From: Bacteroidia bacterium
GTDB taxonomy: Bacteria; Bacteroidota; Bacteroidia; M30B66
Assembly: GCA_965279035.1 (NCBI GenBank)
Contig: OZ257142.1
Span: 1,792,001 to 1,856,000 of the forward strand
Direction: 5' to 3'
Length of the DNA stretch: 64,000 nucleotides
Below the pieces are notes generated by a model, which saw nothing but the letters and a program-made list of their open reading frames with translations, ran no database searches and was not told the DNA's origin. A program made the position numbers and the translations under genes. Positions 6,001 to 61,300 of this stretch are shown one piece after another. Within the stretch, counting starts at the first letter, position 1. The number at the start of each line of letters is the position of its first letter.

Positions 6001-9000
6001 CGAAGTTCCACCTAAGAAACCATTCACAGCCGAACCAGCATCGTTATTAGCAGCAATCGAAGCCGCCGAAACCGATACACTCACCGTTGCTTCATCACAA
6101 TTTGTTGGATTAAGCACTTCGCAAATACGATAGACGAGAGAGTAGGAGCCAGCAGGTGTTCCCGGAGCAACTTCAACAGCCGAACCACTAAGTGTAATTC
6201 CAGCATGACTAGCACTTACAAAAGAAGTAATGACTTCGGCAGGAATGACTGTAATGCCATTGAGTTTATCGTTCGAAAGAACATTTGAATTCGCCGTTCC
6301 ACCCGTGAAACCATTCACCGAAATTCCGGAATCGTCGTTTGCTTGAATAGGTGCAGCCGAAACCGGAACACTCACTGTAGCTTCGTCACAATTGCTTGGA
6401 TGTTGAACATCACAGATGCTATACGTCAGCGAATAAGTTCCAGCCAGTGTACCCGCAAGGACAGAAACACTTGAACCATTCAGAGTAATTCCAGCATGAG
6501 TAGAACTAACAAAACTTAAGGTAACATGCGCAGGATTTACCAACGAGCAATTGAGTGAATCGTTCGCTAAAACATCCGACAGAGAAACTCCGCCAGCATA
6601 ACCATTCACAGAATTTCCTGCATCATTTACTGCTGCAATTGGTCCTGAAACTATAAGATTACTTGTGCAGGTTTTGGTGTTTCCACAGGCATCTTTAACC
6701 GTGATGGTTATCGTATGCGTTCCCGGTGAAACAAGCGTTCCCGCTAAAGGTGATTGAGAAATACTGAGTGAATTTGTTGCAGTACAATTATCACTTGCTA
6801 CAATACCTGTTGTAAAATCTGGTACGATGCCTTTGCATGATGCATTGGAAGCTATGGTTTGATTAGGTGAACAAGTCGTTATTGTTGGAACAACATCGTC
6901 CGTTACCGTAATCACTTGCGTAAATGTAGCACTTTCATTGTTACAAGCATCTTTCGCAATCCAAGTTGTTGTGTATGTTCCACCACATGCTCCAGCAAGG
7001 AATTCTCCTCCGGATTTTACATAGCTTACTGTTCCACATAAATCGCTAGCCACAGGGCTAAGCAATTGTGCTGCAGCGATCGCTTGTGTATTACTGCATG
7101 AGATAGTTTGGTTTAAAGCTCCTGCAACCGTAGTCCATGTTGGAGCTAAGGCATCAATAACCGAAATAACCTGTGTGAAAGCAGTGCTCGTATTATTACA
7201 TGCATCTTTCGCAACCCATGAATTGGTGTAGGTTCCACTTAAACCGCATTGTCCGACTACAAAACTGCCTGATGTTTTGGTATACGTTACCGAACCACAA
7301 TTATCAGTAGCCGATGGTGCTAATCCTTGAGCCGCAGCTAATGCAGCAGCATCGTTGCAATCGACTGTACGATTTAAACTTTCAGCAATGCTTGTCCATG
7401 TTGGAGCTATTGCATCGGTAACAGTAATGACCTGAGTAAATATTCCACTGGCATTTAATGCTGCATCTTTCGCAATCCAAGTATTGGTATAGGTTCCGGT
7501 TGATCCACACGATCCAGCTACAAATACACCGGAAGTTTTGGTATAGGTTACGTTTCCACAATCGTCTGTTGCTACTGGTGCTAAGGCTTGAGCCGTTGCT
7601 AGTGCCGATGCATTACTACACGAAACTGAAGTATTTAAACTACCTGCGACACTCGTCCATGTAGGTGCATTATTGTCGGAATTTGTAATGCTTAAGTTGA
7701 CAGTAACAGCTGGACAAAGCGCTGCATCTCGAACTTGAACCTGATAATTTCCAGGAGTAAGTGAGGATGCCGTTGCTAATGTTCCACCCGAAGGTGACCA
7801 AGCATAGGTATAAGGACTTGTTCCTCCAACAGCCGTAACGGTTGCGCTACCTAAAGTTCCGCAGGTTACATTTGTTTGAGAGGTGATGGAAGCACTTAAA
7901 GCCGCCGAAGGTTGATTGATTTGAACGATTGCCGTTGCAATACATCCCGTTCCATCTTTCACCGAAACAGTGTATGTGCCGGTTGCTAAATTTGAAAATG
8001 CATGCGTTGATCCGTATGCTCCACTGTTAAAGCTGTATTCATAAGGAAGTGTTCCATTTGCACCAAGCGCAGAAAATGCTCCGGTTGATTGTCCAAAACA
8101 GCTCACATGCGTGACTCCACTTGTGCTAATGCTCAAATTGGAGGTATTACTAACAATTGCATTCGCCGAAAACGTACAACCATTTGCATCGGTTACTACT
8201 ACCGAGTAAGGACCAGCAGACAATCCGCTCGCACTTGCCGTTGTAGCACCCGAAGACCATAAATAGGTATAAGGTGATGTTCCGCCAGAAGCTGTTACCG
8301 TGGCTATTCCGTTACTTCCTCCGCAGGTTGCATTGGTAGAACCCGTTGTTGCTGATAATGCAGCCGATGGTTGTGTAACTGTATGAGTAGCACTTGCCGA
8401 ACATCCACTTGCATCCGTACATGTGATGACATACGAACCGGGTTGTAAGTTCGAAATGGTTGCTACAGTAGAAATAACAGTGTTGTTCCCTTGTCGTTTC
8501 CAACTGTAAGTGTATGGTGCTGTTCCATCGGGCGTAGCCGTAATAGAACCGTTGTTCAAGCCATAACAACTAACATTGGTAATGTTAGCGGGAACACTCA
8601 ATACCTTCACTTTTACCGATTGATCAGCAGCTCCTGCAATCACGCAGGCATCGCCACCAATAATGCGTCGGTAATAGGTTTTTTGATACAATGCACCCAT
8701 CAGCGCAGCGGAAAGATTTTGAGTAGTTCCTCCACTGATGTTGGTCCAATTGGTACTATCGGTACTCGATTGCCATAAATAAGTGGAAGCAGCTGTTAAT
8801 CCTGAAGGATACGAGCTCGTGGTTCCATTACGGCTAATGGTTGCTAAGGAATAACTTGGAGCAGAACCGCTCAAGCCTGTTACCTGCGCTCCGGCACATA
8901 CGGTTTGACTTCCAGAAATAGTATTGTTCAACAAATCGGGTGGATTTGCCCACACAACCAATCCAGGTTCGTAAATCGAAGTTGAACTTGTTTTCGTTGT

Positions 9001-43706: not shown

Positions 43707-43845
43707 CCGGATTGAAATCCGAGGTTGCGGGGGTGGGGATTATCTACGTCTTATTCATTTATTAGCCGGATTGAAATCCGGGGTTGCGGGGTTTTATTAT
43801 CTACATCTTATTCATTTATTCCCCGGATTGAAATCCGGGGTTGCC
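43707..43845. repeat. Three tandem REP-like palindromes CCGGATTGAAATCCGGGGTTGC
   Basis: Copies at ~43707, 43766 and 43823, 57-59 bp apart with near-identical linkers; an inverted copy lies at ~47414-47433. Confidence 0.85.
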
Positions 43846-43875: not shown

Positions 43876-44216
43876 CAGCATACCAGCACACCAGCACATC
43901 AGCACACCAGTTTAATGTGCTAATCCGATAGCTATCGGATAGTTGATGTGCTAATGTGCTTATGGAAAGATCAAATCTGCAACTTTCCGGTAACCTAACA
44001 GCACACTAATTCAATGTGCTAATCCGATAGCTATCGGATAGTTGATATGCTAAAGTGCTAATGGAAAAACACAGCTCCAACCTTCAAGTAGCCTAACAGC
44101 ACATCAGCATATCAGCACACCATTAAATCAATTCAATGTGCTAATTCGATAGCTATCGGATAGTTGATGTGCTAATGAACTAATGGAAAAGAACACTGCT
44201 CAAACATAACGCTAAC
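43876..44216. repeat. Tandem copies A-C of a ~110-125-bp REP/MITE-like unit (TGTGCTAA arm, CCGATAGCTATCGG, spacer, CAGCACAY arm)
   Basis: Units start at ~43913, 44013 and 44135, with palindromes at 43925, 44024 and 44146. Confidence 0.9.
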
Positions 44217-45031: not shown

Positions 45032-45069
45032 TTTTCAGTCTGTTAGCGTACTGTTTTTAAATGTCTTAT

Positions 45070-45211
45070 TAGCCTATTTCACACCATCAAATCAAATTAA
45101 TGTGCTAATCCGATAGCTATCGGATAGCTAATATGCTAATGTGCAGATGAAAAAGAAAACTGCTGCAACTTTCCGGTAACCTAACAGCACACCAGCACAC
45201 CATCACATCAA
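45070..45211. repeat. Copy D of the TGTGCTAA/CCGATAGCTATCGG/CAGCACAY unit
   Basis: Palindrome at 45110-45123; spacer CTGCAACTTTCCGGTAACCTAACAGCACAC identical to copy A. Confidence 0.9.
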
Positions 45212-46300
45212 TTATTTAAACCAGCCTTTTCTTCTAAAATAAAACACCATACCAATGGAAATTAAAATCATAATAATCCAAACAATAGGGTAGGCCCATT
45301 CTTGATCCAATTCTGGCATGAACTTGAAATTCATTCCGTAAACTCCTACGATAAATGTTAATGGGATAAATATTGTTGAAATAATCGTCAGTGTTTTCAT
45401 GACGTTATTCATCTTATTACTCAATGAACTTAAATACACGTCCATCATGCCCGAACTCAAGTCACGAAAGGTTTCTAGCGTATCAATAGCATGCACACAA
45501 TGATCATACACATCACGTAAATAAATATCCGTATTGCCTTTTAAATGCAGGTGTTCGCTTTTCGATAAACTACTCACCACTTCACGCATTGGCCAAATGG
45601 ATTTTCGTAAATAAATTAATTCCCTTTTTAATCCATGCAATATTTGTAAATCGCTCGTTTTTGCATCATTTAATAATTGAATTTCTGTTTCTTCCAAATG
45701 ATCGCCAATCCGCTCCAGTACTACAAAATAATTATCTACAATGGCATCCAATAAACTATATAAAATATAATCAGTTCCACTTTTTCGAACTTTCAAATTT
45801 CCCTTTCTCAAACGATCTCTCAAACCATCAAATAAATCACCTTCATCTTCTATAAAACTAATAATTGTATTATTTAATAGAATGATACTTAATTGTTCTG
45901 TCTTTACTTGTTTCTCTTTATCGTCGTAACTAATCATTTTAACAACCACATACAAATACGCTCCGTAATCCTCCATTTTCGGGCGTTGTGTGGGATGAAC
46001 AATATCTTCTTGCACTAAACTATGCAAACAAAATACACGACCTAATTGCTCAACAACCGATGGTTCGTGTATTCCGATGACATTAATCCAGCGTGTTTGT
46101 TCCGAACTAACATCGTCTTTAATATCAGCAATACGGACTTTTTTCTTCTCTGTAAAATGAGATTCATCCCAAGTGAGAATATCTGCATGGACTTCAAAAT
46201 CGCGTGTTTCGCCTACATAAGCTACTGTTCCAGGTGCTAAACCTGCTTTACTTCCAAGGCGACGTTGCCGATGACGATGCGGTGTGTTGTACTTTTTCAT
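45212..46300 (-). CDS. corA: Magnesium/cobalt transporter CorA
   Basis: EDIVHPTQRPKMEDY, MNNVMKTLT, PLTFIVGVYGMNFKFMPEL (GMN signature). Confidence 0.97.
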   Translation of the reverse strand: MKKYNTPHRHRQRRLGSKAGLAPGTVAYVGETRDFEVHADILTWDESHFTEKKKVRIADIKDDVSSEQTRWINVIGIHEPSVVEQLGRVFCLHSLVQEDIVHPTQRPKMEDYGAYLYVVVKMISYDDKEKQVKTEQLSIILLNNTIISFIEDEGDLFDGLRDRLRKGNLKVRKSGTDYILYSLLDAIVDNYFVVLERIGDHLEETEIQLLNDAKTSDLQILHGLKRELIYLRKSIWPMREVVSSLSKSEHLHLKGNTDIYLRDVYDHCVHAIDTLETFRDLSSGMMDVYLSSLSNKMNNVMKTLTIISTIFIPLTFIVGVYGMNFKFMPELDQEWAYPIVWIIMILISIGMVFYFRRKGWFK

Positions 46301-46317: not shown

Positions 46318-47298
46318 CTATTTGCTTTTGTGACGCACTACACTCAATGGCCCATCAATGCGGTTCCCATCGGGTAAAATCAATTCGAATTGATACGTTC
46401 CACTGGGCAAACCAGCACCATCCCAATCGTTTCGATAATTATCCGTTTTAAAAACAACCAGGTCTTTTTTATTTCGAATCGTTAAACGACTATAGCGAGG
46501 CAATCCTTCGATATAAAATAAATCATTAAATCCATCTCCATTGGGTGTAACCACTTCGGGAACGTGCATGCGACCTGCTGGTAATATTTCACCCGAAGGA
46601 GGAGCGATAACCTGCACTTCGGTTGGTTTTTCTACTTCAGGTGTACAGCTACCTAAATACACATTGTCCACATAGAGATAGGCCAAACGAATGTATTGTG
46701 TTTGATCATTTGGCTGAAGATTCGTACTTGCATCGTTACGGAAATTACCAATGGTGACAAACTGTTCACCTCCTTTAGCTTTGAATGTAAAGGATAGGAT
46801 TTTCCAAGTTTTTCCTGTATCCGAAATGGCAAGGTATTTTTGACTTTTGAATTCTGGTTCGCGGATAATGGTGTTCCAGTCGTTCGAGCGTATGGAATCT
46901 TTGCTAAGCGCGATGCCCAATTCATCGGTAAAATAGCTCGATTTTTCTGCTGCCGAAACGGAGATTTTTAAACACAATTCTTCACCCGGAATGAGCATTC
47001 TGCTTAATCGAACTTCGAGGTATTCTCTGAAATTGGGATTGTCGGCATCGTAAAGTATCAAGCCGGCAAACTGTTGTCCTTCAGCAGCCTTTTGCTTTCC
47101 ATGTGGCACCTCTCCCGGTTTGATTAAATCGGGACTACCAATTCCTGCAGGAAACCAAGGACTTGCCTGCTCAATATTTCCTGAATATTTCGATTTTACA
47201 GGCTTCAACGAACGTTCGAAGCTCCCATTGGGTATCAAATTCTGCCCACAAACAGGCAGCACAGAAAGTAGAAAAATTATGGTCAGGAAGCGAATCAT
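46318..47298 (-). CDS. Secreted protein with gliding-motility-associated (T9SS type-B) C-terminal domain
   Basis: QNLIPNGSFE N-terminus; C-terminal VPEVVTPNGDGFNDLFYI...YRNDWDG..LPSGTY. Confidence 0.85.
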   Translation of the reverse strand: MIRFLTIIFLLSVLPVCGQNLIPNGSFERSLKPVKSKYSGNIEQASPWFPAGIGSPDLIKPGEVPHGKQKAAEGQQFAGLILYDADNPNFREYLEVRLSRMLIPGEELCLKISVSAAEKSSYFTDELGIALSKDSIRSNDWNTIIREPEFKSQKYLAISDTGKTWKILSFTFKAKGGEQFVTIGNFRNDASTNLQPNDQTQYIRLAYLYVDNVYLGSCTPEVEKPTEVQVIAPPSGEILPAGRMHVPEVVTPNGDGFNDLFYIEGLPRYSRLTIRNKKDLVVFKTDNYRNDWDGAGLPSGTYQFELILPDGNRIDGPLSVVRHKSK

Positions 47299-47324
47299 GC
47301 AAGGGGCGCAAGATAGTATTTTAG

Positions 47325-47670
47325 TGTGCTGATGTGCTAGTTTTTTGATGTGCTAGTTTTCCCGATTGCAATCGGGAGATGTACTAGTTTGTAGCTGCAG
47401 TATACCTCCCGCATCCCCGGATTTCAATCCGGGGGGAGATTACCCTAATCTTTCACATCGCCCCAATCTCTCAATCACCCGCTTCGACAAGCTCAGCGGG
47501 CGGACTCTAGTCTTTCTCTAACCTAAGAGCACACCAACCCACCATCACATCACTTTAATGTGCTAATCCGATAGCTATCGGATAGCTAATGTGCTCATGT
47601 GCTGATGGAAAAGAACACTGCTCCAACCTCGCACTAACCTAACATCACATCATCACACCATCACACCAGC
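47325..47670. repeat. Mixed repeat cluster, including copy E of the TGTGCTAA unit
   Basis: TGTGCT repeats; TCCCGATTGCAATCGGGA (~47360); CCCCGGATTTCAATCCGGGG; GCTTCGACAAGCTCAGC (~47481, reverse complement of the 17891 motif); CCGATAGCTATCGG at 47568. Confidence 0.85.
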
Positions 47671-47689
47671 CTTTAGACTTGCACTATTA

Positions 47690-47870
47690 TTTTAGTTGAG
47701 ATATCTTGACTGAAAATAAACAAAGAAACGGGGTGAACTATCTCATCAGCTAGGTCTTTAAATCCCTAAGGTGTGTATGAGTCCCCGTTTCCTTTAACCA
47801 TGTTGTTAATGGCCAGCTAGAATTTTAGACTTCGAGATCTATTAAAGGTTTTAGCCAAGAGCAACACTTA
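47690..47870 (+). ncRNA. Predicted IS110 bridge RNA
   Basis: 5' hairpin 47691-47714. Target-binding loop closed by GAAACGGGG/CCCCGTTTC, with guides CTCATCAGC (47742) and GGTGTGT (47770). Donor-binding loop closed by TGTTGTT/AGCAACA, with guides CTAGAAT (47817) and TAAAGGT (47843). Confidence 0.85.
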
Positions 47871-47881
47871 AAAACAAAAGT

Positions 47882-48862
47882 ATGAAGAAGAACTTTATTG
47901 GCATTGATGTGTCAAAATTAACGCTGGATGTTTATTTACATAATCAATCTCAGCACAACGTCTTTAGCAATGATATCGATGGTTATACACTGATGCTTGC
48001 TTGGTTAAAGCAGTTGAAAGTGAGTGTAAAATCGATGGCCATTTGCTTTGAGCATACGGGTATTTATAGCGAGGATTTATCTGTGTTTTTGAGTGAAAAG
48101 AAGATCTGTTTTTACATGGAATCCTCCTTAAACATTAAGTATTCTATTGGACTTCAGCGAGGCAAAAATGATAAGATAGACTCCCAAAGAATCGCAAATT
48201 TCATTGCATTACATGCAGAACAGCTTAGCCCAACGGTACTATCAAAGAGTGCTGTAGCGCAGCTGAGAAAGCTCTTGAGTATGCGTTCGCATCTGGAAAA
48301 AGAGAAGATAGGCATCAAAAACAGACTTAAGAACTCATCAAAAACCACTGGTGTAGATATAGTTTTTCAAATCGAAACGGATCTGTTAAAGACCTTTAAC
48401 GATAAACTTAAACTGGTAGAAGAGGAAATCAAATCATTGATAAAGTCAGATGATAATCTTCGTCAAATCGACGAATTAGTTCAATCTATAAAAGGAGTTG
48501 GACCAGTGTCGAGTTGGTATTTAATCGCCACAACAAATGGCTTTGAATACTTCGACAATGCTCGTCAATATGCATGTTATAGTGGAATAGCTCCATTCGA
48601 AAAATCATCAGGAACATCCATAAAAGGGAAAACACAAACCGATAGAAGATCAAATCGAAAAATCAATGGAGTATTAACAATGGCGGCGCGTTCGGCAGTA
48701 TTAAATAACACCGAAATGAGAGAATATATGGAGCGTAAAATCCAGGAAGGAAAACATTATAATTGTGCACTCAATGCAGTCAAAAACAAACTTGTATCAA
48801 GAGTATTTGCTGTCGTAAAAAGAAAAACACCCTATGTTGATCTAAAAAAATACGCTGCATAG
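47882..48862 (+). CDS. IS110-family DEDD recombinase/transposase (326 aa)
   Basis: GIDVSK, FEHTGIY, KNDKIDS (DEDD RuvC-like); SIKGVG and GIAPFEKSSGTS (catalytic Ser region). Confidence 0.97.
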   Translation: MKKNFIGIDVSKLTLDVYLHNQSQHNVFSNDIDGYTLMLAWLKQLKVSVKSMAICFEHTGIYSEDLSVFLSEKKICFYMESSLNIKYSIGLQRGKNDKIDSQRIANFIALHAEQLSPTVLSKSAVAQLRKLLSMRSHLEKEKIGIKNRLKNSSKTTGVDIVFQIETDLLKTFNDKLKLVEEEIKSLIKSDDNLRQIDELVQSIKGVGPVSSWYLIATTNGFEYFDNARQYACYSGIAPFEKSSGTSIKGKTQTDRRSNRKINGVLTMAARSAVLNNTEMREYMERKIQEGKHYNCALNAVKNKLVSRVFAVVKRKTPYVDLKKYAA

Positions 48863-49332
48863 ACTTGCATAAGTCCTAGAATACACACCAACCCACCAGC
48901 ACATCAGATAAGTAAGATTCTTACTCTCCTCATCTTATCATCCCTAAAATTTCCGGACTTGGGGGCTTCATTACAAAATCCATTTTCGTTTAAAGAGTGT
49001 AGAGATAAAGTTTTCAACAGAGCTAGTGTTATTTTGACACAATTAATTGGCAATGTGGGTGCTGATAGGCCTTTTATGTGGCTTATTCTGTTGAAAATCA
49101 AGGATTCTGTAAATTTGGTATTTCCATCTGATTGGTCTATTTTTATGCTCCCTAAATTTCCCTTAGAAGTACCCTAATCTGTTTTGCTTTGAAAAATTTT
49201 GACGTGCTTTCTCGCTTCTCAACCCAAAACACTGCATTTTCTGTGTGGTGTAAGAAAAACAGCAAGTCTGTAACGTTTCCGATTTCATCCCGTATGCTTA
49301 GTGTTTTGAAAACTACCCTTTTCCCCGCATCC

Positions 49333-52300
49333 ATGAAGAACTTCAACTCCACCACCATGATGCTTACCCGTATTCGTTTAACCTGCTTGTTAGTACTTGC
49401 CGGTTTATCTGCTTTTGCGCAGACTACCGTTACCTACACCCAGCAACAGGCAAACTACTACACCACTTTTACTGCCGGTACTGCTGGTAACTTCAACCAA
49501 GGCTCTTTCCAACTTGGGATGTATGCCAATGCTGGAGGTACAAAACAAGTAGCATCATTTCGTAAATTTCGAACGGATGGTTCGGGTTCATCTACCGGTG
49601 ATCGGAGTATGAAAGTCGGTGATCAGTTTGTAGTCACCTTATCGGCTACTCGTGCCTATGGTAGAATCGGTTTCTCCCTTTTGGCTTCTCCAAGTGCAAC
49701 TACTGCTTGGACCGATCGGGAAAACAATTATGCGATGAGCATGAATTTGGACGGAAATTCCGGAGCTTGGGGTAACTGGTATGCGAAGTACAATGGCGGT
49801 GGAACTTCTGCAGGATCGGCAAACGTAGCTGGACAACAAACTACCTATAAAAATTTCACTTTCACTCTTACGCTTACAGCTCCAGATCGGATGAATGCCA
49901 CCTGGACAGATGGAACAACAACTAGTAATCTCTACGATATTCAATTAAATACTTCCAACCCGATTACCGACTATTGCGTGTTTTTGGAAGACGACTGGGA
50001 TGGCGGAGCAAATCGAAACATCTACTGGGGATTAGGAGCAGTAGGAACTCAACACACATTAACCAATACAGGTAACTGTACTATTGGACAAAGCAATTCT
50101 TCCTTTACAACTTCAGGAGTAATTTTTAACGGACTCGATGCCAATAGCGCATCCACCAATAGCTTAAACAACAACTTAGTAAAAAGCGGAACTGGTACAC
50201 TCACCTTGAGCGGCGCTAATACATATGTTGGAACTACAACAGTAAATGGTGGTTCACTTCTATTAGGTGCATCCGGTGTGATTCCTGATGCAAGTAATGT
50301 AACTCTTAATGGTGGAACCTTGAGTTCTGGATCCGGTGCAGGTTTTACAGAAGTCATGGGGACTTTGAACCTTAGCGCCAATTCAACCTTAGCTCTCGGA
50401 ACAGGAGCACATACAATCACTTTTGCTAATTCCAGTGCTGTTTCTTGGACAGCCAATACGATCCTTACTGTTACTGGTTGGACAGGTACCAATAATGGAA
50501 ATTCATCTGGAACAGCAGGGAAGCTGTTTGTTGGAAATGGCTTTGGCGGATTGACAGGTATTCAATTATCAAGAATTCGATTTAATATCAGCGGTACTTT
50601 GTATGGAGCCATGCAATTGAGTACAGGTGAAGTGGTACCTACAGGTGGAACGGTTTTATACTATGGTGGTGCAAATGGTACTTGGACTGGAAGTTTATGG
50701 AGTGTTAATGAAGGTGGACCATATACTACAGCATGGACATCTGGTTGTCATGCTGTAATGAATTTAACTTCAGGAGCAAATACTCTTACTGGAGCTACTA
50801 CTAACATTGCTGCAATTACTGTAAATGCTGCGGTAACATATGCAATAGGAGGTACTTGGAGTATGGGTCCTGCAGGTGCTGCCGTTGCTCCAATATACGT
50901 AGATAATGGGGTAACATTTTCAATGCTTGGTCAGGGAATTTCAGTTACAGCTGGAAATGGTATAATAAAAAATGGTTCAGGGATTTTACAAGGCGCCAAT
51001 GGTAATAATTACTTAGGTGGATTTACAATTAACAATGGAATGTTTGCCATTGGTGGAATTAATTCCATGGGAAATGGTGGAACTTTAAATATTAATGGTG
51101 GAACATTAGCCGGAACTGCAAATCGTGATTTAACAGGAAAATTTAGTTCAATAACTATTGGTGGAGATTTTACATTAGGTTCATCTACTTCTCCTGCATC
51201 AGGTACTGCAACATTAACTTTTACAAATAATACAGCTTTAGGAAGTTCTGTTACACGTACAATCACATTAGGTGGAACTGGTTTAATTACTTGGAATGGT
51301 ATCATCAGTGGTACTAGTTCTAACTTAACGATTGGTGCTACTGCAGCGGGTTCTATGTCGCTTGGTGGAGTTAATACATTTGGAGGAAACTTTACAGTCA
51401 ATGCAGCATCAAGTACCATTACACTCGCAGCAGCAAATTCATATGGTGGAGGAACAGTTGTTAATGCTGGTACATTAAAACTTACTATTTCTTCTGCAAT
51501 CCCATCAGGTTCGGCATTAAGTTTTGCGAATACATCAGGAGCAATTCTCGATTTAACTACGACTGCTTTAACACACACTGTTGCCTCTCTTTCGGGTGGT
51601 GGCTCAACTGGTGGTAATATCAGCTTTGGCGCTCCAGCTACAGGCGAAGTGTTAACAATCAATCAATCAGGTAACACAACGTATTCAGGTTTAATTAGTG
51701 GTAACGGTTCAATCACCAAAACAGGTGCTGGAATCTTAACCTTTGGTCATACTGCTAATACTTATACAGGTTCTACAACCATTTCGGCTGGAGAGCTTCG
51801 CTTGAACCCAAGCACAACCACAGCTACATTTGCTTCACCCGTAATTTTAAGTGGTGGTAAATTGAGCACTACTTCGATTACAGCTGCTACAACTTTCACT
51901 AGCTCATCAACCTTAAAACTTAACGCAAGCAGCAGCATCGACTTAGGTTCGAATGCGCATTCCTTGAAATTTGCTGCTTCGAACGGTGTTGCTTGGACAG
52001 GTGCAACTACCTTAACAATCAATGGTTGGACAGGTACAGGAGGAGCAACAGGAACTGCTGGTAAAATCTTTTTCGGTTCTGCAGTAGGAACACTTACAGG
52101 AACTCAATTAGGGCAAATCACATTTACTGGTTATACGGGAACACCTATCCTTTTATCAACAGGAGAATTGGTTCCTCCAGTTCCGTCAGTTACCTATACA
52201 TGGACTGGTGGTGCAGGAGATTTTCTTTGGACAAGTCCAGCCAACTGGAGTCCTGGAACAAGTACAGCAGGCGTTGGTCCAACAGCTACCGACAATGTTG

Positions 52301-55300
52301 TTATTCCGGTTGCAACAAACATGTTAAACTTAAACGTTGCTAAAACGGCAGCGAATTTCACATTAAGTGGAACAGGAAGTTTCCAAGTAGGAGCATCAGG
52401 CTCGCTTACAGTAACAGGTACATTAACGAATTCAAGTTCGGCTACACCAACATTTAACTGTGGTTCAACATTCACAGTAAGCAGTGCTGGACAAACCATC
52501 CCTGCATGGAATTACGGAAACTTGGTATTGAGTGGTACAACAGCCACATTAGCAAGTTCAGGAACGATTGGTATTTGCGGAAGTTACACACCTTCTGCTA
52601 CTACCACTGTAACAGGAAGTACTGTTGATTTCAATGGTTCTACCGCTCAAAGTATTTTAACCAATGCAGCGGTATTCAATAATTTAACGATTTCGAATAC
52701 GGCATCAACTGTAACATCGGGAGTAAACGTAACGGTAAACGGAACAGGAACGATTAATTCAAGTGCTACCTTTATTCAATCGGCAGGAACTTTTGCAGCC
52801 AATGCAGTTGCCACAACGGTTAATGGTACATTACGAGTTACAAGTACAGGGGCAGCAACAGGTTCGGCAGCGAACTTAATTTTCAGCTCTACTGGAACTT
52901 ATGATCATAATCGGGATGGAGGAGCAATTCCATCGGCTTCTTGGAATGCAACTTCTAATTGTAATATCACCGGTATTAACGCAACATTGTGTACAAACAC
53001 AGCTCAAACATTTGGTAACTTCTTATGGAATTGTCCTTCATCGTCGACAACATTTAACTTTGGAGCTGCATTAATGACCAATGTTGTAGGGCTTTGTGAG
53101 ATAAGAAATACGAATGGAGCTACAGGTACACTGGGTTTTGATGCAACTAGAACTTGGACTGGAAATTTATCGATCACAGGTGGTAGAATTGCATTAACAA
53201 GAACGGGTTCAGCAACAAGTTCTTCTTTAACTGTCAATAATTTTACATTAGATAATACAAGCGATGCCAACGCACGATTTACACTTGGAGGAAATGCTTC
53301 TAATGTGGCATCAACTCTCACTGTAAATGGAACCTTCACTATTACATTGGGACAAAATGCGGCTGTCTCTCCAATTATAGTTTACGGAGGATTAGCAGGA
53401 ACTGAGAATGTTAATGTAGTAGGTAATTTCTCTCAAACGGGAGCTTTCACAGGATCTATAGGAGGTTCTTCAAGCAGAAACTTCAATTTTACGGGTGCTG
53501 GAACAAGAACAATATCTTGGGCAAGTTCAACTTTATGGGGTTCTGTTGCTGTTAATGTAAATAGTCCAGCCATTATAGATATTGCAAACTATGTATTAAA
53601 TAACACGGGTACATTCACACTAAACTCTGGAGCAGGTATCATCACAGCCAATGTCAATGGATTAACCACTTCGGGAGCAACAGGATCAATTCAATCGTCT
53701 GGTTCACGTACGTATACTTCAGGTGCTAACTATACCTATAATGGTACTGCGTCACAAGCAACTGGAAATGGATTAAATCAAAATACACCAACCAATGTTA
53801 ATATTGATAATACTGCAGGAGTAACGCTTTCTGGAGCAACAACCATAAGCGGTGTATTAACTTTGACTAACGGGAAGTTGGATATTGGTGCAAATGATTT
53901 GACTTTGAGTAGTGTCGGATTAGGAAGTGTAACGGGAGCGAGTTCATCCAAATACATTATTACTTCTGGAGCGGGACAATTACTAAGAGCAATTTCAACT
54001 GGAGGATATCCTTTAACCTATACCTACCCGGTTGGAGATGCAAGCAACTATACACCAGCAGCATTCAATTTTACTTCTGGCGGAACTGCTCGCAATATTG
54101 GAGTACGAGTAGTAAATACAGTACATCCGAGCAATACTCCTTCAACCGATTATGCCAACCGTTATTGGGCTGTAAGCAATAGTAATGCAGCTGGCACTTT
54201 TGCTTATACTCCTACGTTTACGATTGTTGATCCAGGAGATATTGGAGCTGGTTCGTATGCCAACATGAAAATAAATCGTTGGAATGGTACTTCTTGGACT
54301 CAATATGATACATCACCCAATACTACGTTTAGCACTCCTGATTTTACCTTAACTTCTACACTTATTCAGTTCACAATTGTCAATGGTGGTACTAATGAAT
54401 TTGCTATTCGCTTAAACAATCCAGCAATCAATTACACTTGGAACGGAGGTACAAGTTCATCGTGGACTACAACAACCAACTGGACACCGAATGGAACTCC
54501 AGGTGTGAATGATAATATTACCATTCCAGATGTTGCATCATATACCAATGAATTGATTGTAAGTGGTTCAAAAACAGTAACCGATTTCACAGTAAGCGCA
54601 AATGGAAAGTATACTTTAGGTGCTGCCAGTTCATTAAATGTTGCAGGAAACTATACCTATAGCAGTTCAACTGCTCCAACATTTGATTGTACTAGCACAT
54701 TGAGTTTGAGTTCAGCTTCAAGTCAAACTGTACCAGCACATAATTATGGTCATTTAAATTTAAGTGGGGGAGATCGCGTTTTAGCAAGCAGTGGAACGAT
54801 AGGAATTTGCGGAAATTATACTCCAAGCAGTGGTGTTACAACCATAACAGGAAGCACTGTTGATTTCAATGGTACATCGGCACAAACGATCATTACCAAT
54901 GCGGCATCATTTAATAATCTAACCATTTCCAATACTTCATCTACAGTAACTGCCAGTGTGAATGTTACAATCAATGGAACTGCTACGATTAACTCGAGCG
55001 CAACGTATGTTCAATCGGCCAATACATTAACCATCGCAGCAGCAACAACCACCAATGTAAATGGAACCTTACGTAATTCGGGAGGAACTATTACTAACAG
55101 TGGCACTTTAAACTTCAATGCATCGTCTATATATGACCATGCACGCGATGGTGGAGCAGTACCAACAGCTACTTGGAATGCTACTTCAAACTGTAATATC
55201 ACCGGTATTAATGCAACATTATGTACAAACACAGCTCAAACATTTGGTAATTTCTTGTGGAATTGTCCTTCATCGTCGACATCATTTAACTTTGGAGCAG

Positions 55301-58300
55301 CATTAATGACCAATGTTGTAGGACTTTGTGAAATAAGAAATACGAATGGAGCAACAGGTACACTAGGTTTTGATGCAACAAGAACTTGGACAGGAAATTT
55401 ATCGATCACAGGTGGAAGAATTGCATTAACCAGAACGGGTTCTGCAACAAGTTCCTCTTTAACTGTCAATAATTTTACATTAGATAATACGAGCGATGCG
55501 AATGCACGTTTTACTATTGGCGGAAGTGGTTCGAACGTTTCAGCGGTATTAACTACCAATGGTAATTTTACCATGGTTATGGGTCAAAATGCAGCAGCTA
55601 CTCCAGTTATAGTTTATGGTGGTATTTTAGGAACTGAAAATATTATCGTTAAAGGTAATTTTAGTCATAGTGGTTCAGGAACAGGAACCATCAGTAGATC
55701 TGGAACAGGAGGAACATCCGAAACATTCACATTTACACCAACAGGAGCTCAAACATTCACAAGTGCAAATGCTAGTTTATTTGGATTATGTGATGTAGTT
55801 CTTAATGGAACTGGATCTTTAGCTTTTGATGCAACAAGTATCATCGCCAATACAACTGGAGCTACGCCAACAGTAGGTCGATTTACCTTGGCTTCTGGGG
55901 CAACAATTATAACAGCAAATACAGGTGGTTTATCCCTTACCGGTTCTACAGGTAGTATACAATCAGGAGGAACTAGAACATACAATGCTGCCGCGAATTA
56001 CACTTACAATGGTAGTTCTGCTCAGATAACCGGTTTAGGTTTGGTTCAAGCGAATAATTTAACAATCAACAATGCCGCAGGAGTTACTTTATCGGCAGGA
56101 ACAACAATAACAAACAATGTCAACCTGAGCAATGGTGTTTTAACATTGAATACGGCTGATTTAATTATCAATAACGCAGCAACAATCACGGGAACTTTTG
56201 GACCAACTGCCATGATTGCAACCACTGGTTCAGCATCGAGAAGCTCAGGAAGAGTTATGCGCATGTTCCCATCAGGAACTTCTAGTGGATCTTTCACTTT
56301 CCCATTAGGAGATATTACAGGAACAGCTGAATATTCTCCTATAACTATTTCTCTATCTTACACTGGAGCTACATTGCCTCCTTATGTTGCCTATAAAGTA
56401 AAAGATGCACAAAATCCAAGTGATCCATCCATTACAAATTATATCAGCAGATATTGGGAAGTAACTTCCAATTTATATTCAGCTACAGGTATTTCGTTTA
56501 CAACTACATCAACCTATGTAACAGCCGATATTGTAGGAACTGAAACTTTAATAGAACCGAATCGCCTTTCTCAATCGGGTGTTGATATCGGTACTTGGTA
56601 TGAAGATGCTACCGGAAGTGCTGGTTCAAACACACTCAATGGAGCAACCTTAACTTCTGCAAACGATTTCAATGATGATGATTTAACGGGAAGATTAACA
56701 GTACCAATTTATTTCCGTTCGAATGTTGCTACAGGCAATTTTGAAAGCCCGGGTTCATGGTTAGTATCTACCGATCCTGCTTTCCTTGCACCTGTTGGAA
56801 CAACTACTACTGCATCTCCAACATATAGTAATTGTGATGGTATTGAAATTATGAGTGGTCATAATATTACCATTGCTGCTGCAGCCGGAATTGATCAAGC
56901 AACGGTAAATTCTGGAGGAACATTAACGATTGGTGCAGGAGCTACTTTGGTTGTATACAACGGAACCGGTACCGATTTACAAGTGAATGGTTCTTTGGTC
57001 AATCAATCGAGCATTGCTGTAACATTAGCAGGAACTCTTGTAATTGGATCTACTGGTTTGTACAATCATAACATCAACAGTGGAACTATTCCTAGTGCAA
57101 CATGGACTGCAGGTTCAAATTGTTTGATTTCAGGAATGACCACAACAGCACCATCTGGATTAGGTCAAGCATTTTCTGATTTCACGTTTAACTCAACATT
57201 ATCTGCAAGCAATAGCTTAAGCAGCGCTTTAACGAATGTTGGAAGAGACTTAACTATCAATGGAACTGGCGGTTTCACTTTAGGTTTAACATCAACTACA
57301 GCTTTAGCATTAACTGTTGGTAGAGATCTGAATGTAACATCAGGCTTCCTAACATTAGTTACTGGAGCAAATACCAATACTGTTTCACTTACTGTTTCGG
57401 GGGATTTAAAAATCTCTGGAAATGGTGGATTCTCCATCGCTGGTGGATCATCATCAGGAGCTGGTTCAACTACTTTAACTGTAAATGGATTAGTTAATAA
57501 TACTTCTTCTTCTGGTACTTCGTTCGTGATGTCGGGAGCATCTAAAATTGTTACTGCAACCATAGCTAATGGATATTCTCAAAGTTCAGGAACGGCTTCT
57601 ATGTCGCAAGGTTCTGGAGCAACTACATTAACCATTGCAACAGGTGGATTTACATTAAGTGGCACCGGTTCTTTCAATATGAACAATGGTGGAACGGGTG
57701 GAGCAACAATGAACATTACTTCTGGAGATTTCACACAATCTGCGGGTAACTTTAATCTCTGTGCTTCTAGTACTGGACCAGCTTATATCAACCAGAATAA
57801 TGCAGCCAACGGAATGGTATTATCTGGTGGAACAATGAATGTTTTACTTGGAAATTCTGTTACGTATGCGAATCGCCCAATCATCACCTTGGCTGGTTCA
57901 TTTAGTCAAAGCGGCTCCCATGCATTTGATTGGGGCGGAGGTTCTGTATCAAATACAGCAAGTCCATACCCAGCCGAATTAAGAGTTGCTAAAGATTTCT
58001 CACGTGCAGGAACATCTACTATCAACTGTAGTAGCGGAAGTGTGACGAATAAAGGCTTGATCTTATTCAATGGAACACAAAACATTTCCTCGCTTTCAAC
58101 AGGTACATTTAATAAAACAGAGACTCAAATTTCAGGTACTTCAACACTGAATAACGACTTCACCATGACTTCTGGTGCGAACACCGTTTTCACGATTAAT
58201 TCGGGAGGTCGTTTAAATACAAACAATTATGTAGTATCAGCTCCAGGAGGTACACCAACCTTTACTTTATCAAGTGGAGGTACTATTTCTTTAACTGCAG

Positions 58301-61300
58301 CTTCTGGAACTAGTAATTCAACTGGAAACATACAGATCAATGCCCCAACCTATAATGCTGGAGGTAACTACTTGTTCGAAGGAAGTACTTCAGGTATGGT
58401 TACTGGACCTTATTTACCTGCTTCTGTAACAGGAAATATAACTATCAATAATAGCAATGGGGTAACACTTTCGAATAACCTTACTATAGGTGCTGCAAGT
58501 GTTCTTACTTTAACCTCTGGTGTATTCGATCTTGGAACTAGCAATCTAATTTTAACATCGGGTGCAACGATTAGTAACTATGCTATTTCTCGTTACATTA
58601 AAACAAGTAGCACTGGAACAATTCGTCAAACTTTAGCTACCAATACACCTGTTCTTTTCCCAGTTGGGAATAGTGGGTACAATCCTATAACTTTGAGTCA
58701 ATCGGGAGCTAGCGATAATTATACGCTTCGTATGATTGATGGAGCTATTTCTGGATTGAGTCCAAATGATGTTACTAAGACAATCAATCGTAATTGGTCG
58801 TTTACACGAACAAGCTCAAGCATTGTAAGCATTACAGCAAGTTCTATCTCTTATAATGTAGGTGAAGAAAACAATGCAACAAACTTTAATGCTGGCACTC
58901 AACCGTATTATGGTTTATACAATGGTGCTTTATGGGTTCAAGCTACAGCCACACAAGGAGCGCAAACATTCACCTCTGCCAATGCTGTTTCTTCCTCAAC
59001 TTCTACAAGTTTCAATGTAGCAATGGGTAAAGATGATGCCTTTATTAATCCATCTACTACGTATACTTGGGTTGGTAACGGAGCTGCTGGCGATTGGACA
59101 GATCCGAATAACTGGAATCCAAGTACATCACTTGCAGGTCCTCTTCCGGGCGATAACATCATCATTAATGCTCCAGGTACTGCAAGTAATAATTTGAATT
59201 TGAATATTTCTAAAACCGTTACCGATGTTACATTCAATGGAACTGGCGTTATGGCTTTAGGAGCATCAGGTAGTTTAACCATTAATGGTACTGTAACATA
59301 CGGAGGTAGCTTTAGTGCAACTCTCAATTGTAGTAGTACAATCAATTATGCGAATACTACTGCTCTAACAATCCCGCCATTTAACTATGGAAATTTGGTG
59401 AACGCCAATGCATCAGTAAGAACATGGGCAGCAAGTGCTACAACTGGTATTTGCGGAACTCTAACAGCAGGAATTGGATCAACATTCACAGCTGGTGCAG
59501 GTAGTACAGTTGATTATAATGGAACAGGTGCACAAACAGTTGTTAATCTCAATTATAATAACCTAACGATCAGTCAAAATAGAGGAGGAGCTACTGTTAC
59601 TTTAGCTTCTGGAACTATTGATGTTGCAGGTACATTTAACCCAAGTTTGAGTAACAATTCTATTTCTTATTCAGGAAATACAATTAATTTCTCAGGTTCT
59701 GCAGGACAAGGAATTCCAGCCTTTACATATAATAACATCACAAGTTCAAATCTTGCTCGTACATGGGCAAATTCAGGGGTGATTGATGTAAATGGGACTT
59801 TTGCAATTCCATCTTCCGGTGTGCAAACTGTAACAGGAAGTACTGTTCGCTATTCTAGTACTGCAGCTGGAACAATTACTTTAACAAGTTTCTCTAGTTC
59901 TGCAACACCACGTCATTACAATAATTTAGAAATAGTTGGTGGAGCTTCTTCTATCTGGAACTTAGCTTCTGGATTTAATTTAGGATGCGCTGGTAATTTC
60001 GATTTAACTGGCGCAGGTACATTTACAGTTGCTGTTAATGCCACAGCAAATTCAATGACTGTGGATGGAAATTTAACTGTAAGTGGTTCTGGTAATTTGA
60101 TTATAGCCAATACAGCTACAGCAACTTTAGTCAACAATTTAACTGTTACAGGAAACACAACCATCAGTAATGGATTGCTTACTTGTATTGGTGCTTCTAG
60201 TAGTACTACTGTTCAAGGAAATTTAAGTACGACTGATCTAACCATTAGTGGTTCAGGAGCAGTAAACCTTGATGCAGCAAGTAATACAGCAAGTGCTGCC
60301 ATTACGGTTAATGGAAATATGAGTGTTACCAGTACTTCGGCCAGTGCAGTAAACTTTGGATCAGGTACTAATAATGCAAACAACGTATTCAACCTTAAAG
60401 GAAACCTAAGTAAATCTGGAACAGGTTCATTTAATTGTACTGGAACCTTCAATTCTACTACAGGTTTCTTCTTCAATAATGGGAGTGGAACACAGCAGTT
60501 TAGTTATGCAGGAACTGCAATGACAGCTGCGAATATCAATGTTTCAGCAGCGAGTACCTTGCAGTTAATGAGCAGCTTTAATTTAGGTTCTGCTGGTGCA
60601 AGTAGCTTAAATGTTGTGGGAACAGGTGTTCTTATTATGGGAACCAATGTAGTAACAGCAGGAAACAGTGCCAATCTCTTCAGCTTGAGTTCAACCGGTA
60701 CCTTGAAAACTGCTAATACATCGGGTGTTATAGGATCGATTGCTGGATTTACCTTTGCGAACTGTACGTTTGCATCAGGTGCTATTTTTGAATTCAATGG
60801 TGCTGCAGCTCAAAACACAGGTGTGTCAACCTTTACAGGAATTACTACTGCAAGTTTTTACACCATTACTTGGACTGGAACAACCAGCTTAACATTGGAT
60901 AAATCTTGGAGTTTAAATACTCTCAATTTCACTAACAGTGGTTTGATTTATTTGGGCACCAATAACTTAACAATTACTTCAGCTGGATCAATTACAGGAG
61001 GTTCATTCTCTGCATCCAAGATGATTGTAACCGACAATACAGGAACATTAGTTAGAAGTGTAACTTCAGTTGGTGTAGGATTACCATTTACTTGGCCAAT
61101 TGGCGAAAATACAGGAACAACAGAATACTCTCCTGTTACAATTGCTTCTTTAGCTTCTGGTGGTATTGCTGGATCCATAGGTTTCAGAGTCGTGGATGGT
61201 ATTCAACCGAATATGAGTCCTGCAACCATCTATGCAAGCAGATACTGGCCATGTACAGTTTCGGGATACAATGCAACTTATACATTAGGAAGTTCGACCT

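What the first reader, a model, noticed from the sequence alone, without database searches (positions are those of the whole stretch)
47742..47851. Non-identical cores (target GC, donor AC) and a product-matching handshake guide
Seen: only one base (C) is shared by the two junctions. The left target guide encodes GC, while both right guides end in GT, which pairs with AC or with GC through a U-G wobble. The left donor guide has TT at the core positions. The extended right target guide GGTGTGTAT (47770-47778) is the exact reverse complement of the recombined junction ATACACACC (48881-48889). Known: IS621 uses a shared CT core, and handshake dinucleotides bias strand exchange. Inference: natural core-mismatch tolerance, with possible consequences for directionality and engineering.
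Basis: partly seen in the sequence, partly recalled or inferred. Interest (0 to 1): 0.75.

Follow-up and report, generated by a model that had tools for sequence, protein, structure and literature searches.

The report
Bridge-RNA insertion sequence with one-base core
This is a mobile element of the IS110 family, steered by its own bridge RNA, and its two ends share one base instead of the usual two, which could loosen a design rule used when these enzymes are adapted for genome editing.

Summary
Window 47671-48884 is an IS110-family element: a 211-nt left end encoding a two-loop bridge RNA, then a DEDD/Tnp recombinase gene (47882-48862). It sits in an 8-bp repeat array. The left junction reads CACACCA-GC-CTTTAG and the right junction CTAGAAT-AC-ACACC. 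GGTGTGTAT (47770-78) occurs twice in the window: once in the right target guide and once as the reverse complement at the right junction.

The G/A difference is not a later mutation. In the close clade, 8 of 9 distinct left junctions have G and one has T, where the left target guide covaries. All 8 right junctions have A. By my reading, 10 of 24 more distant lineages (32-41% identical recombinases) also differ at this position, while the next base is the same at both junctions in all 24.

The right target guide base opposite this position is complementary to the donor base in 29 of 29 rows. In two lineages it cannot pair with the target base at all. So the wobble idea does not hold generally.

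The better reading is a one-base core. The preceding base belongs to the arms and acts as a third handshake position, one base more than the heterology at positions 6-7 known for IS621.

Verdict: new variant of a known kind, moderate interest.

The parts
47671..48884 (+). IS110-family insertion sequence, 1214 bp. The shared C is counted once, at the right end. The other copy of the C, at 47670, is counted as target.
   Evidence: Boundaries come from guide-flank matches, from alignment with 8 further left and 7 further right junctions, and from a single high-depth unitig spanning 47667-48887 in the contigs of runs X19 and X20.
47669..47670 (+). Left junction positions 8-9 (G, C). G is the last target-specific base and C is the shared core base.
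   Evidence: The intact repeat elsewhere reads ACCAGCAC 9 times on the + strand against 0 for ACCAACAC.
47690..47715 (+). 5' stem-loop of the left end, upstream of the two guide loops
   Evidence: Minimum-free-energy fold. Not tested by covariation.
47724..47794 (+). Target-binding loop module of the bridge RNA: an 11-pair outer stem (about 47724-47734 with 47784-47794) and an inner hairpin (47751-47754 with 47765-47768)
   Evidence: Model R1 and alignment A5: helix 1 has 11 of 11 pairs with changes on both sides and 93.1% of cells paired.
47742..47750 (+). Left target guide CTCATCAGC, same sense as the left flank 47662-47670. Its 8th base, G, reads the target's position 8.
   Evidence: It covaries with the flank in L001 (AAATAGC) and in L048 (TCATCTATC, 9 of 9).
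47770..47776 (+). Right target guide GGTGTGT. GGTGT pairs with the right flank ACACC, G pairs with the core C, and U lies opposite position 8.
47777..47778 (+). Handshake guide AU of the target-binding loop. It pairs with the last two bases (AT, 48881-48882) of the right end.
   Evidence: In relatives AU goes with TAGAAT ends and UU with TAGAAA ends.
47801..47866 (+). Donor-binding loop module: outer stem 47801-47807 with 47860-47866, second stem 47810-47813 with 47854-47857, and inner hairpin 47826-47829 with 47838-47841
   Evidence: Helix 3 has 6 of 6 pairs with changes on both sides and 95.7% of cells paired.
47816..47822 (+). Left donor guide CTAGAAT, identical to the right end at 48876-48882. 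It is followed by UU, which does not match AC.
47843..47851 (+). Right donor guide TAAAG (pairs with CTTTA at 47671-47675), then G (pairs with the core C), then U (pairs with the donor A at position 8), then the handshake UU
47882..48862 (+). Recombinase gene, 326 aa: DEDD RuvC-like domain plus Tnp domain
   Evidence: Pfam PF01548 (E 2.5e-16) and PF02371 (E 2.2e-18). IS621 transposase E 1.5e-22 and ISCro4 E 1.6e-25. D9, E57, D97, D100 and S243 align with the IS621 catalytic residues.
48863..48884 (+). Right end, 22 bp, ending in CTAGAAT-A-C. A at 48883 is donor position 8 and C at 48884 is the core.
47611..47670 (+). Left part of the target: an 8-bp repeat array (CACATCAT CACACCAT CACACCAG C) belonging to an intergenic repeat family
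   Evidence: families D6, D8, D14, D16; 16 target-like sites against 3.12 expected.
48885..48908 (+). Right part of the target array (ACACCAA CCCACCAG CACATCAG). It stays in 8-bp register with the left part once 47671-48884 is removed.

Best explanation
The element is an IS110-group insertion sequence guided by a bridge RNA encoded in its left end. The stretch that donor and target must share is one base, the C at position 9, and not a dinucleotide.

The base before it, position 8, belongs to the arms:
- In the target it is free. It is G here and T in L048, and it is read by the left target guide.
- In the donor it is A, and it is read by the U of the right donor guide.
- After the top strands are cut 3' of the C and exchanged, the donor A is read by the U of the right target guide.

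So the right target guide carries a three-base handshake, UAU against donor ATA, where IS621 has two bases.

Each top strand keeps its own positions 6-9. Every insertion therefore ends with the target base at the left junction and the donor base at the right junction, and the next excision rebuilds a donor carrying A.

Shown here: the anatomy, the guide-junction complementarity, the covariation, and the constancy of the asymmetry across copies and lineages. Inferred from IS621 and CazIS110 work: the cleavage positions, the order of strand exchange, and the way the bottom strand is completed.
For: 1. Family and RNA.
- Pfam finds the DEDD_Tnp_IS110 and Transposase_20 domains.
- The IS621 catalytic residues align.
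- A covariance model built from 5 clade sequences found 32 distinct full-length plus-strand homologues upstream of related recombinase genes, among 36 rows from the 46 sources searched. The other four rows were three minus-strand rows and one duplicate (L071 = L021).
- On that alignment 91.2% of cells pair, against 63.0% in shuffles, and 26 of 27 pairs change on both sides. The covariation score is 0.712, against 0.210 in shuffles (0 of 500 reach it) and at most 0.182 when the partners are slid. The alignment was fitted to the model, so these counts lean towards the structure.

2. Close clade (67-93% amino-acid identity).
- Left-junction position 8 is G in 8 of 9 distinct junctions and T in 1 (L048). 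Its left target guide reads U there, and the guide matches the flank at 9 of 9 positions.
- Right-junction position 8 is A in 8 of 8.

3. Targets carry G.
- In the window ACCAGCAC occurs 9 times on the + strand and ACCAACAC 0 times.
- In G003, CATCAGCACAT occurs 18 times (reversed-pattern control 0) and CATCAACACAT 5 times (control 2).
- Removing 47671-48884 restores the 8-bp register of the array.

4. Wider branch.
- By my manual reading, 10 of 24 lineages with both junctions read differ at position 8. Position 9 is identical at the two junctions in all 24.
- The right target guide base opposite position 8 is Watson-Crick complementary to the right-junction base in 29 of 29 rows.
- G370 has AC at the left in 5 of 5 copies and TC at the right in 5 of 5. 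The only 2 intact sites in that genome read TTTGAC-AC-ACCTTC.
- L040 has left GA and right AA, with both target guides matching at 9 of 9.

5. Source organism.
- The contigs give one unbranched unitig, 47667-48887, at about four times the depth of the flanks. At least three different left flanks enter it. This fits all copies sharing CAGC at the left and AATACACA at the right.

6. Literature.
- In IS621 the top strand is cut after position 9, and the bottom strand between 9* and 10*, which corresponds to top positions 5 and 6. Positions 6-9 are therefore exchanged, and 6-7 already differ between donor and target (Hiraizumi 2024, passages; Hiraizumi 2026, passages).
Against: - No empty site, circle junction or excision product of this element was seen. 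The contigs laid on the stretch show neither a joint that skips the element nor a right-end to left-end joint. The target G and the donor A are therefore inferred from junctions, guides and paralogous repeats.
- In this clade G.U wobble pairing of the guide U with the target G is possible.
- The left donor guide has UU where AC is expected, so one of the four guides does not read positions 8-9 at all.
- In several distant lineages (L019, L021, L022, L033, L042, G237) the register between the left target guide and the flank is off by 1 to 9 bases or is unclear. The right flank of L022 does not match its guide. My 10 of 24 tally is a manual reading. About 7 of the 10 have both guides confirming the register.
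- Fourteen of the 24 lineages do have identical dinucleotides.
- Cleavage positions are carried over from IS621, whose recombinase is only distantly related (E 1.5e-22).
Confidence: 0.75

Rival explanations
1. A true two-base core (target GC, donor AC) is recognised as a unit. The mismatch is tolerated because U in both right guides pairs with either A or G. The wobble is the enabling feature.
For: In the window clade the two purines are exactly the pair that U can read. L020 and L019 also combine a left target guide G with a right target guide U. In L025 and L030 the right donor guide U could wobble with the target G.
Against: L048 has target T opposite guide U. G370, L072 and L028 have target A opposite guide A. 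L040 has a right donor guide C opposite donor A. All are non-pairs, yet these elements have junctions that match their guides. The right target guide base follows the donor in 29 of 29 rows and does not follow the target.
Confidence: 0.15
2. The G (or the A) is a point mutation acquired after insertion in this copy. The functional element has identical cores.
For: None was found.
Against: The left junction has G in 8 of 9 and A in 0 of 9 copies, and the right has A in 8 of 8, across four genomes and two metagenome contigs. The unitig boundaries in the source organism fit this. The left target guide itself encodes G.
Confidence: 0.02
3. The boundaries are misplaced. The AC at 48883-48884 is target sequence, the element ends at 48882, and nothing is shared.
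For: AC is compatible with the ACAC-rich target array.
Against: Keeping AC breaks the 8-bp register of the array, while removing it restores the register. The G of the right donor guide pairs with a C before CTTTA, and the U next to it pairs with A, which fits a donor joint AAT-AC-CTTTA. In L023 and L047 the right end abuts the left end directly, with exactly one dinucleotide between them.
Confidence: 0.05

Closest known systems
IS621 (E. coli), the reference bridge-RNA recombinase
   Same: - The same two protein domains and aligned catalytic residues.
- RNA encoded in the left end, with a target-binding and a donor-binding loop.
- Left guides in the sense of the top strand and right guides antisense to it.
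- A handshake guide 3' of the right target guide that matches the donor's last bases.
- A repeat-element target.
   Different: - IS621 has CT at both junctions, described as invariant and always paired with the guides. Here only a C is shared. It is a C, where IS621 has its near-invariant T.
- The handshake of the target loop is in effect 3 bases.
- The left donor guide does not read positions 8-9.
- The recombinases are only distantly related (E 1.5e-22).
CazIS110-1 (Sun et al. 2025 preprint) and the IS621 single-strand circle (Xie et al. 2026 preprint)
   Same: Both report that mainly or only the top strand is excised and inserted (abstracts and passages). That would produce exactly the junction asymmetry seen here.
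   Different: Those are biochemical results on elements with identical cores. Here there is only sequence evidence, and it cannot separate top-strand-only transfer from dual-strand exchange followed by repair.
IS621 with reprogrammed cores GT, AT and TT (Durrant et al. 2024)
   Same: The first core position is flexible (passages).
   Different: In the passages I read, donor, target and all four guide positions were changed together. Donor and target were not made to differ. Later design rules require matching cores (IS622 preprint, passages).
ISCro4 transposase (PDB 9t56)
   Same: The best match among solved structures (E 1.6e-25).
   Different: Nothing about its RNA or core was examined here.

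Membership tests
IS110 family, IS110 group (bridge-RNA insertion sequences) | Recombinase with an N-terminal DEDD RuvC-like domain and a C-terminal Tnp domain carrying a catalytic serine | tested here: met
   PF01548 at residues 6-151 and PF02371 at 198-283. D9, E57, D97, D100 and S243 align with IS621 D11, E60, D102, D105 and S241, assuming a 2-residue tag in the PDB chain.
IS110 family, IS110 group (bridge-RNA insertion sequences) | Long non-coding left end upstream of the gene and a short right end | tested here: met
   The left end is 211 bp (47671-47881) and the right end 22 bp (48863-48884).
IS110 family, IS110 group (bridge-RNA insertion sequences) | Structured RNA with two internal loops, each flanked by a stem and holding an inner hairpin | tested here: met
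   Model R1 found 32 distinct full-length plus-strand homologues among 36 rows. 26 of 27 pairs show compensatory change. The alignment was fitted to the model. Rfam has no matching family (0 hits).
IS110 family, IS110 group (bridge-RNA insertion sequences) | Target guides complementary to the two flanks and covarying with them | tested here: met
   Window, L001, L048 and the copies in G003. 16 target-like sites in the window against 3.12 expected.
IS110 family, IS110 group (bridge-RNA insertion sequences) | Donor guides complementary to the right-end and left-end termini | tested here: met
   CTAGAAT equals the right-end terminus, and TAAAGG is the complement of CCTTTA at the left end.
IS110 family, IS110 group (bridge-RNA insertion sequences) | Handshake guide complementary to positions 6-7 of the other substrate | tested here: met
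   The target loop has AU against the donor AT. In relatives AU goes with TAGAAT ends and UU with TAGAAA ends. The donor loop UU pairs only with the target A at position 7.
IS110 family, IS110 group (bridge-RNA insertion sequences) | An identical core dinucleotide at both boundaries | tested here: not met
   GC at the left and AC at the right. The difference is constant across copies. Only position 9 is shared.
IS110 family, IS110 group (bridge-RNA insertion sequences) | Circular intermediate with abutted ends, and a promoter rebuilt at the joint | not testable with these tools
   No right-end to left-end joint was seen in the contigs laid. The promoter scan offered is of the sigma-70 type and was not run.

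The most novel reading that the evidence does not exclude
The constant left and right asymmetry at position 8 is found in about 10 of 24 lineages and is kept while the recombinases diverge to 67% identity within the clade. It could serve as a natural genetic marker showing that only top-strand information is inherited through the whole IS110 cycle. That would mean copy-out and top-strand paste-in, or bottom-strand completion templated on the top strand. In that reading, this branch has turned the first core base into a third handshake base that locks the reaction towards insertion, and only one base must match between donor and target.
Probability: 0.4. Interest if true: 0.65.

Novelty: new variant of a known kind. 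Interest (0 to 1): 0.5.

Why it matters
- **Design rule.** Bridge recombinases are being developed as genome-editing tools under the rule that donor and target must share the core dinucleotide (IS622 preprint, passages). The IS621 core is also described as invariant and always paired. A natural branch in which only one base is shared would relax that rule for suitable orthologues. It also points to the right target guide base opposite position 8 as a further handle on directionality.
- **Mechanism.** These elements offer a ready-made marker for the open question of whether one or both strands are transferred.
- **Annotation.** Pipelines that define the core as the sequence repeated at both ends, and that require concordant cores (Durrant 2024 methods, passages), may misplace such elements or drop them.

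Tried and rejected
- **Rfam.** A search of 47000-49500 at E up to 1 gave no family.
- **Own genome.** None is held for this window, so copies were sought elsewhere.
- **Genome collection scan.** Only 5 loci came back, of which 4 were useful.
- **Metagenome scan.** It returned 10 loci and only 2 belong to the clade.
- **Single-sequence fold.** The fold of the left end was not distinctive (z = -1.59) and was not used as evidence.
- **RNAalifold.** On 5 sequences it paired the left donor guide with the right donor guide. I did not adopt that and gave my own structure to the model.
- **Paralogue alignment.** Aligning the rebuilt empty site to the paralogue at 45120-45260 did not discriminate between G and A, because the array is periodic.
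- **Sequencing runs.** The contigs of four runs showed no joint that skips the element and no right-end to left-end joint. Contigs cannot show rare forms. Runs X1 to X18 hold only small shares of the sampled words, and I draw nothing about habitat from them. The roughly fourfold depth of the element in X19 and X20 is a hint of copy number, not a measure.
- **Unclear lineages.** The register between the left target guide and the flank could not be settled in L019, L021, L022, L033, L042 and G237. L020, L034 and L039 lack a readable left junction and are not in the tally of 24. L023 and L047 have a right end abutting a left end in place of one of their flanks (upstream of the left end in L023, downstream of the right end in L047) and are also left out.
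- **Unpublished genome.** L024 comes from the unpublished genome G117.
- **Literature.** Searches, and passages of the papers read, gave no description of natural IS110 elements whose donor and target differ at a core position. This is a limited search.
- **Not run.** Structure prediction, complex prediction, the protein-wide searches and the promoter scan. They do not bear on the question.

Full report
**What is there.**
The stretch 47742-47851 lies in the non-coding left end of an insertion sequence. The gene at 47882-48862 encodes a 326-aa protein with the two Pfam domains of IS110 recombinases: PF01548 (E 2.5e-16) and PF02371 (E 2.2e-18). Its best solved relatives are the ISCro4 transposase (E 1.6e-25) and the IS621 transposase (E 1.5e-22). 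In the printed alignment D9, E57, D97, D100 and S243 fall on the IS621 catalytic residues, if the PDB chain carries two extra N-terminal residues. Rfam has no family that matches the RNA.

**The observation.**
- The left junction is CACACCA|GC|CTTTAG, with G at 47669 and C at 47670.
- The right junction is CTAGAAT|AC|ACACC, with A at 48883 and C at 48884.
- The left target guide CTCATCAGC (47742-47750) has the sense of the left flank and ends in GC.
- The right target guide GGTGTGT (47770-47776) and the right donor guide TAAAGGT (47843-47849) both end in GT.
- The left donor guide CTAGAAT (47816-47822) equals the last seven bases of the right end and is followed by TT.
- GGTGTGTAT occurs twice in 64 kb, in the guide and as the reverse complement at 48881-48889. 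Shuffles give a mean of 0.35.

**The RNA is a bridge RNA.**
I aligned the region from five clade members and gave it a two-module structure: an outer stem and an inner hairpin for each loop. I then built a covariance model.
- Searched over 46 sources, the model returned 36 rows. Three are spurious minus-strand rows and one is a duplicate locus. The other 32 are full-length matches just upstream of related recombinase genes.
- On that alignment 91.2% of cells pair, against 63.0% in shuffles, and 26 of 27 pairs change on both sides. The covariation score is 0.712, against 0.210 in shuffles (0 of 500 reach it) and at most 0.182 when partners are slid.
- The alignment was fitted to the model, so these numbers lean towards the structure. 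The margin is nevertheless large.

**The difference at the junctions is not a mutation.**
No whole genome is held for the window. I collected copies from the genome collection, from the genomes behind those loci and from metagenome contigs.
- In the close clade (67-93% protein identity) there are nine distinct left junctions: the window, L001, four in G003, two in G005, and L048. Eight read AG-C-CTTTAGAC. L048 reads AT-C-CTTTAGAC. None has A.
- There are eight distinct right junctions: the window, L001, L002, L049, L048 and three in G003. All read GAAT-AC.
- In L048 the left target guide reads TCATCTATC, identical to the flank at 9 of 9 positions, so the guide covaries with the target at position 8. 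Its right target guide AAATGTAT is still the exact complement of the junction ATACATTT.
- In contigs of the source organism the element is one unbranched unitig, 47667-48887, at about four times the flank depth. At least three different left flanks enter it. This fits all copies sharing CAGC on the left and AATACACA on the right. The depth ratio is only a hint of copy number.

**The target carries G.**
- The element sits in an array of 8-bp units that belongs to an intergenic repeat family with five copies in the window.
- Sites resembling the guide-specified target occur 16 times, against 3.12 expected, nearly all in these repeats.
- In the window ACCAGCAC occurs 9 times on the + strand and ACCAACAC does not occur there.
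- In G003 the G form of the local target occurs 18 times (reversed-pattern control 0). The A form occurs 5 times (control 2).
- Removing 47671-48884 restores the 8-bp register: CACACCAG CACACCAA CCCACCAG CACATCAG. Keeping the AC breaks it.
- No orthologous empty site was available, so the G at this particular site remains an inference.

**The wider branch.**
A protein search of 400 genomes of the same class found relatives at 32-41% identity in 34 of them. I read junctions from multi-copy alignments and by matching donor guides to the ends.
- By my manual reading, 24 lineages have both junctions. Position 9 is the same on both sides in all 24: C in 22 and A in L040 and L042.
- Position 8 is the same on both sides in 14 lineages and differs in 10.
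- The ten that differ are the window clade (G left, A right), L048 (T, A), G370 (A, T), L025 (G, T), L030 (G, T), L072 (A, T), L028 (A, T), L040 (G, A), G237 (T or A, A) and L022 (A, G).
- About seven of the ten have both target guides confirming the register. L022, G237 and L072 are weaker, and several identical-core lineages also have unclear registers for the left target guide.
- The cleanest cases are L040 and G370. In L040 both target guides match at 9 of 9. In G370 all 5 copies have AC at the left and TC at the right, and the only two intact sites in that chromosome read TTTGAC-AC-ACCTTC.
- Across 29 rows, the right target guide base opposite position 8 is always Watson-Crick complementary to the right-junction base, that is, to the donor base.
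- In L048, G370, L072 and L028 that guide base cannot pair with the target base at all.
- The right donor guide base opposite position 8 pairs with the donor in some lineages, including the window clade, and with the target in others (G370, L072, L028, L040).

**How it most likely works.**
In IS621 the top strands are cut after position 9. Positions 6-9 leave their guides and are exchanged. The two bases 3' of each right guide, the handshake guides, pair with positions 6-7 of the incoming strand. The bottom strand is cut opposite positions 5 and 6, so positions 6-7 are already heterologous within the exchanged stretch (Hiraizumi 2024, passages; Hiraizumi 2026, passages).

The data here fit the same scheme with one change: position 8 behaves like positions 6-7.
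- It is programmable in the target and read by the left target guide.
- It is fixed in the donor.
- The right target guide is matched to the donor base, so the target loop gains pairs on exchange. In the window a G.U wobble becomes A-U, and A-U and U-A pairs are added at positions 7 and 6.
- The shared core is then the single C.
- Because each top strand keeps its own positions 6-9, the left junction keeps the target base and the right junction keeps the donor base. Excision by the reverse reaction rebuilds a donor with A.

The anatomy and the statistics are shown here. The cleavage sites and the order of events are inferred from IS621.

**What remains open.**
- The pattern is also what top-strand-only transfer predicts (Sun 2025 and Xie 2026 preprints, abstracts and passages). 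Sequence alone cannot separate that from dual-strand exchange followed by repair.
It fails in the relatives.
- The left donor guide does not read positions 8-9. IS621 offers a partial precedent, since its left donor guide stops at position 8.

**Comparison and novelty.**
The element meets every tested defining feature of the IS110 group except the identical core dinucleotide.
- In the passages I read, first-position core changes were tested in IS621 only with donor, target and guides changed together (Durrant 2024).
- Design rules require matching cores (IS622 preprint), and the core is called invariant.
- The boundary pipeline of Durrant 2024 defines cores as repeated end sequences, which would hide such cases.
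- My searches and the passages read found no description of natural donor-target differences at a core position. The search was limited and supplements were closed.

I rate this a new variant of a known kind, of moderate interest. It is a natural extension of known handshake heterology. It has practical meaning for target choice, and it provides a usable natural marker for the question of which strands are transferred.

Noticed in passing
47674-47683 and 48860-48869: A 10-bp direct repeat, TAGACTTGCA, lies near both ends of the element. The right copy begins with the stop codon. It is only partly kept in L001.
   Followed up: no
47816-47832: The 5' half of the donor-binding loop reads CTAGAAT followed by TTTAGACTT. 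This is the right-end terminus followed by the left-end start, without the three bases ACC of the joint. It is conserved in the clade.
   Followed up: no
47815-47825 with 47844-47855: RNAalifold pairs the left donor guide with the right donor guide (CUAGAAUUU with AAAGGUUUUAG). This could mask the donor loop in the free RNA.
   Followed up: no
43876-43968, 43975-44067, 44097-44189, 45061-45153, 47519-47611: An intergenic repeat family of about 90-130 nt: 8-bp arrays (CACACCAG or CACATCAG) next to a palindrome, TAATCCGATAGCTATCGGATAG. It is the natural landing site of the element. G003 has a similar family.
   Followed up: partly
43707-43731, 43766-43790, 43821-43844, 47408-47434: The GC-rich hairpin CCGGATTGAAATCCGGGG is repeated three times in one intergenic region and once, inverted, upstream of the element.
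   Followed up: no
1-11355 (-) and 49189-63999 (+): Two very large open frames (over 3785 and over 4937 aa, both running off the window) are built from repeats with periods of 255-261 and 291 nt. The neighbouring gene 46318-47298 ends in a motif that I recall as a Bacteroidota gliding or secretion C-terminal domain. This was not tested.
   Followed up: no
L023 around 2170 (minus strand) and L047 downstream of the gene: A right end abuts a left end directly, with one dinucleotide between them: TTGGAAT-GC-CTTTAG in L023 and ATAGAAA-TC-CTTTAG in L047. These are either tandem copies or an assembled circle joint.
   Followed up: partly
window 47679-48214, in run X1: A wastewater metagenome contig carries a relative with 15 differences over 536 nt. 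These include A47769T and G47770A, which turn the right target guide into the type seen in L001 and L005.
   Followed up: no
L004 and L005 (G003): Two copies in one genome share the left target guide but differ in the right target guide (AAGGTGT and ATAGTGT). This matches the two kinds of right flank found in that genome (ACATC and ACATT).
   Followed up: partly
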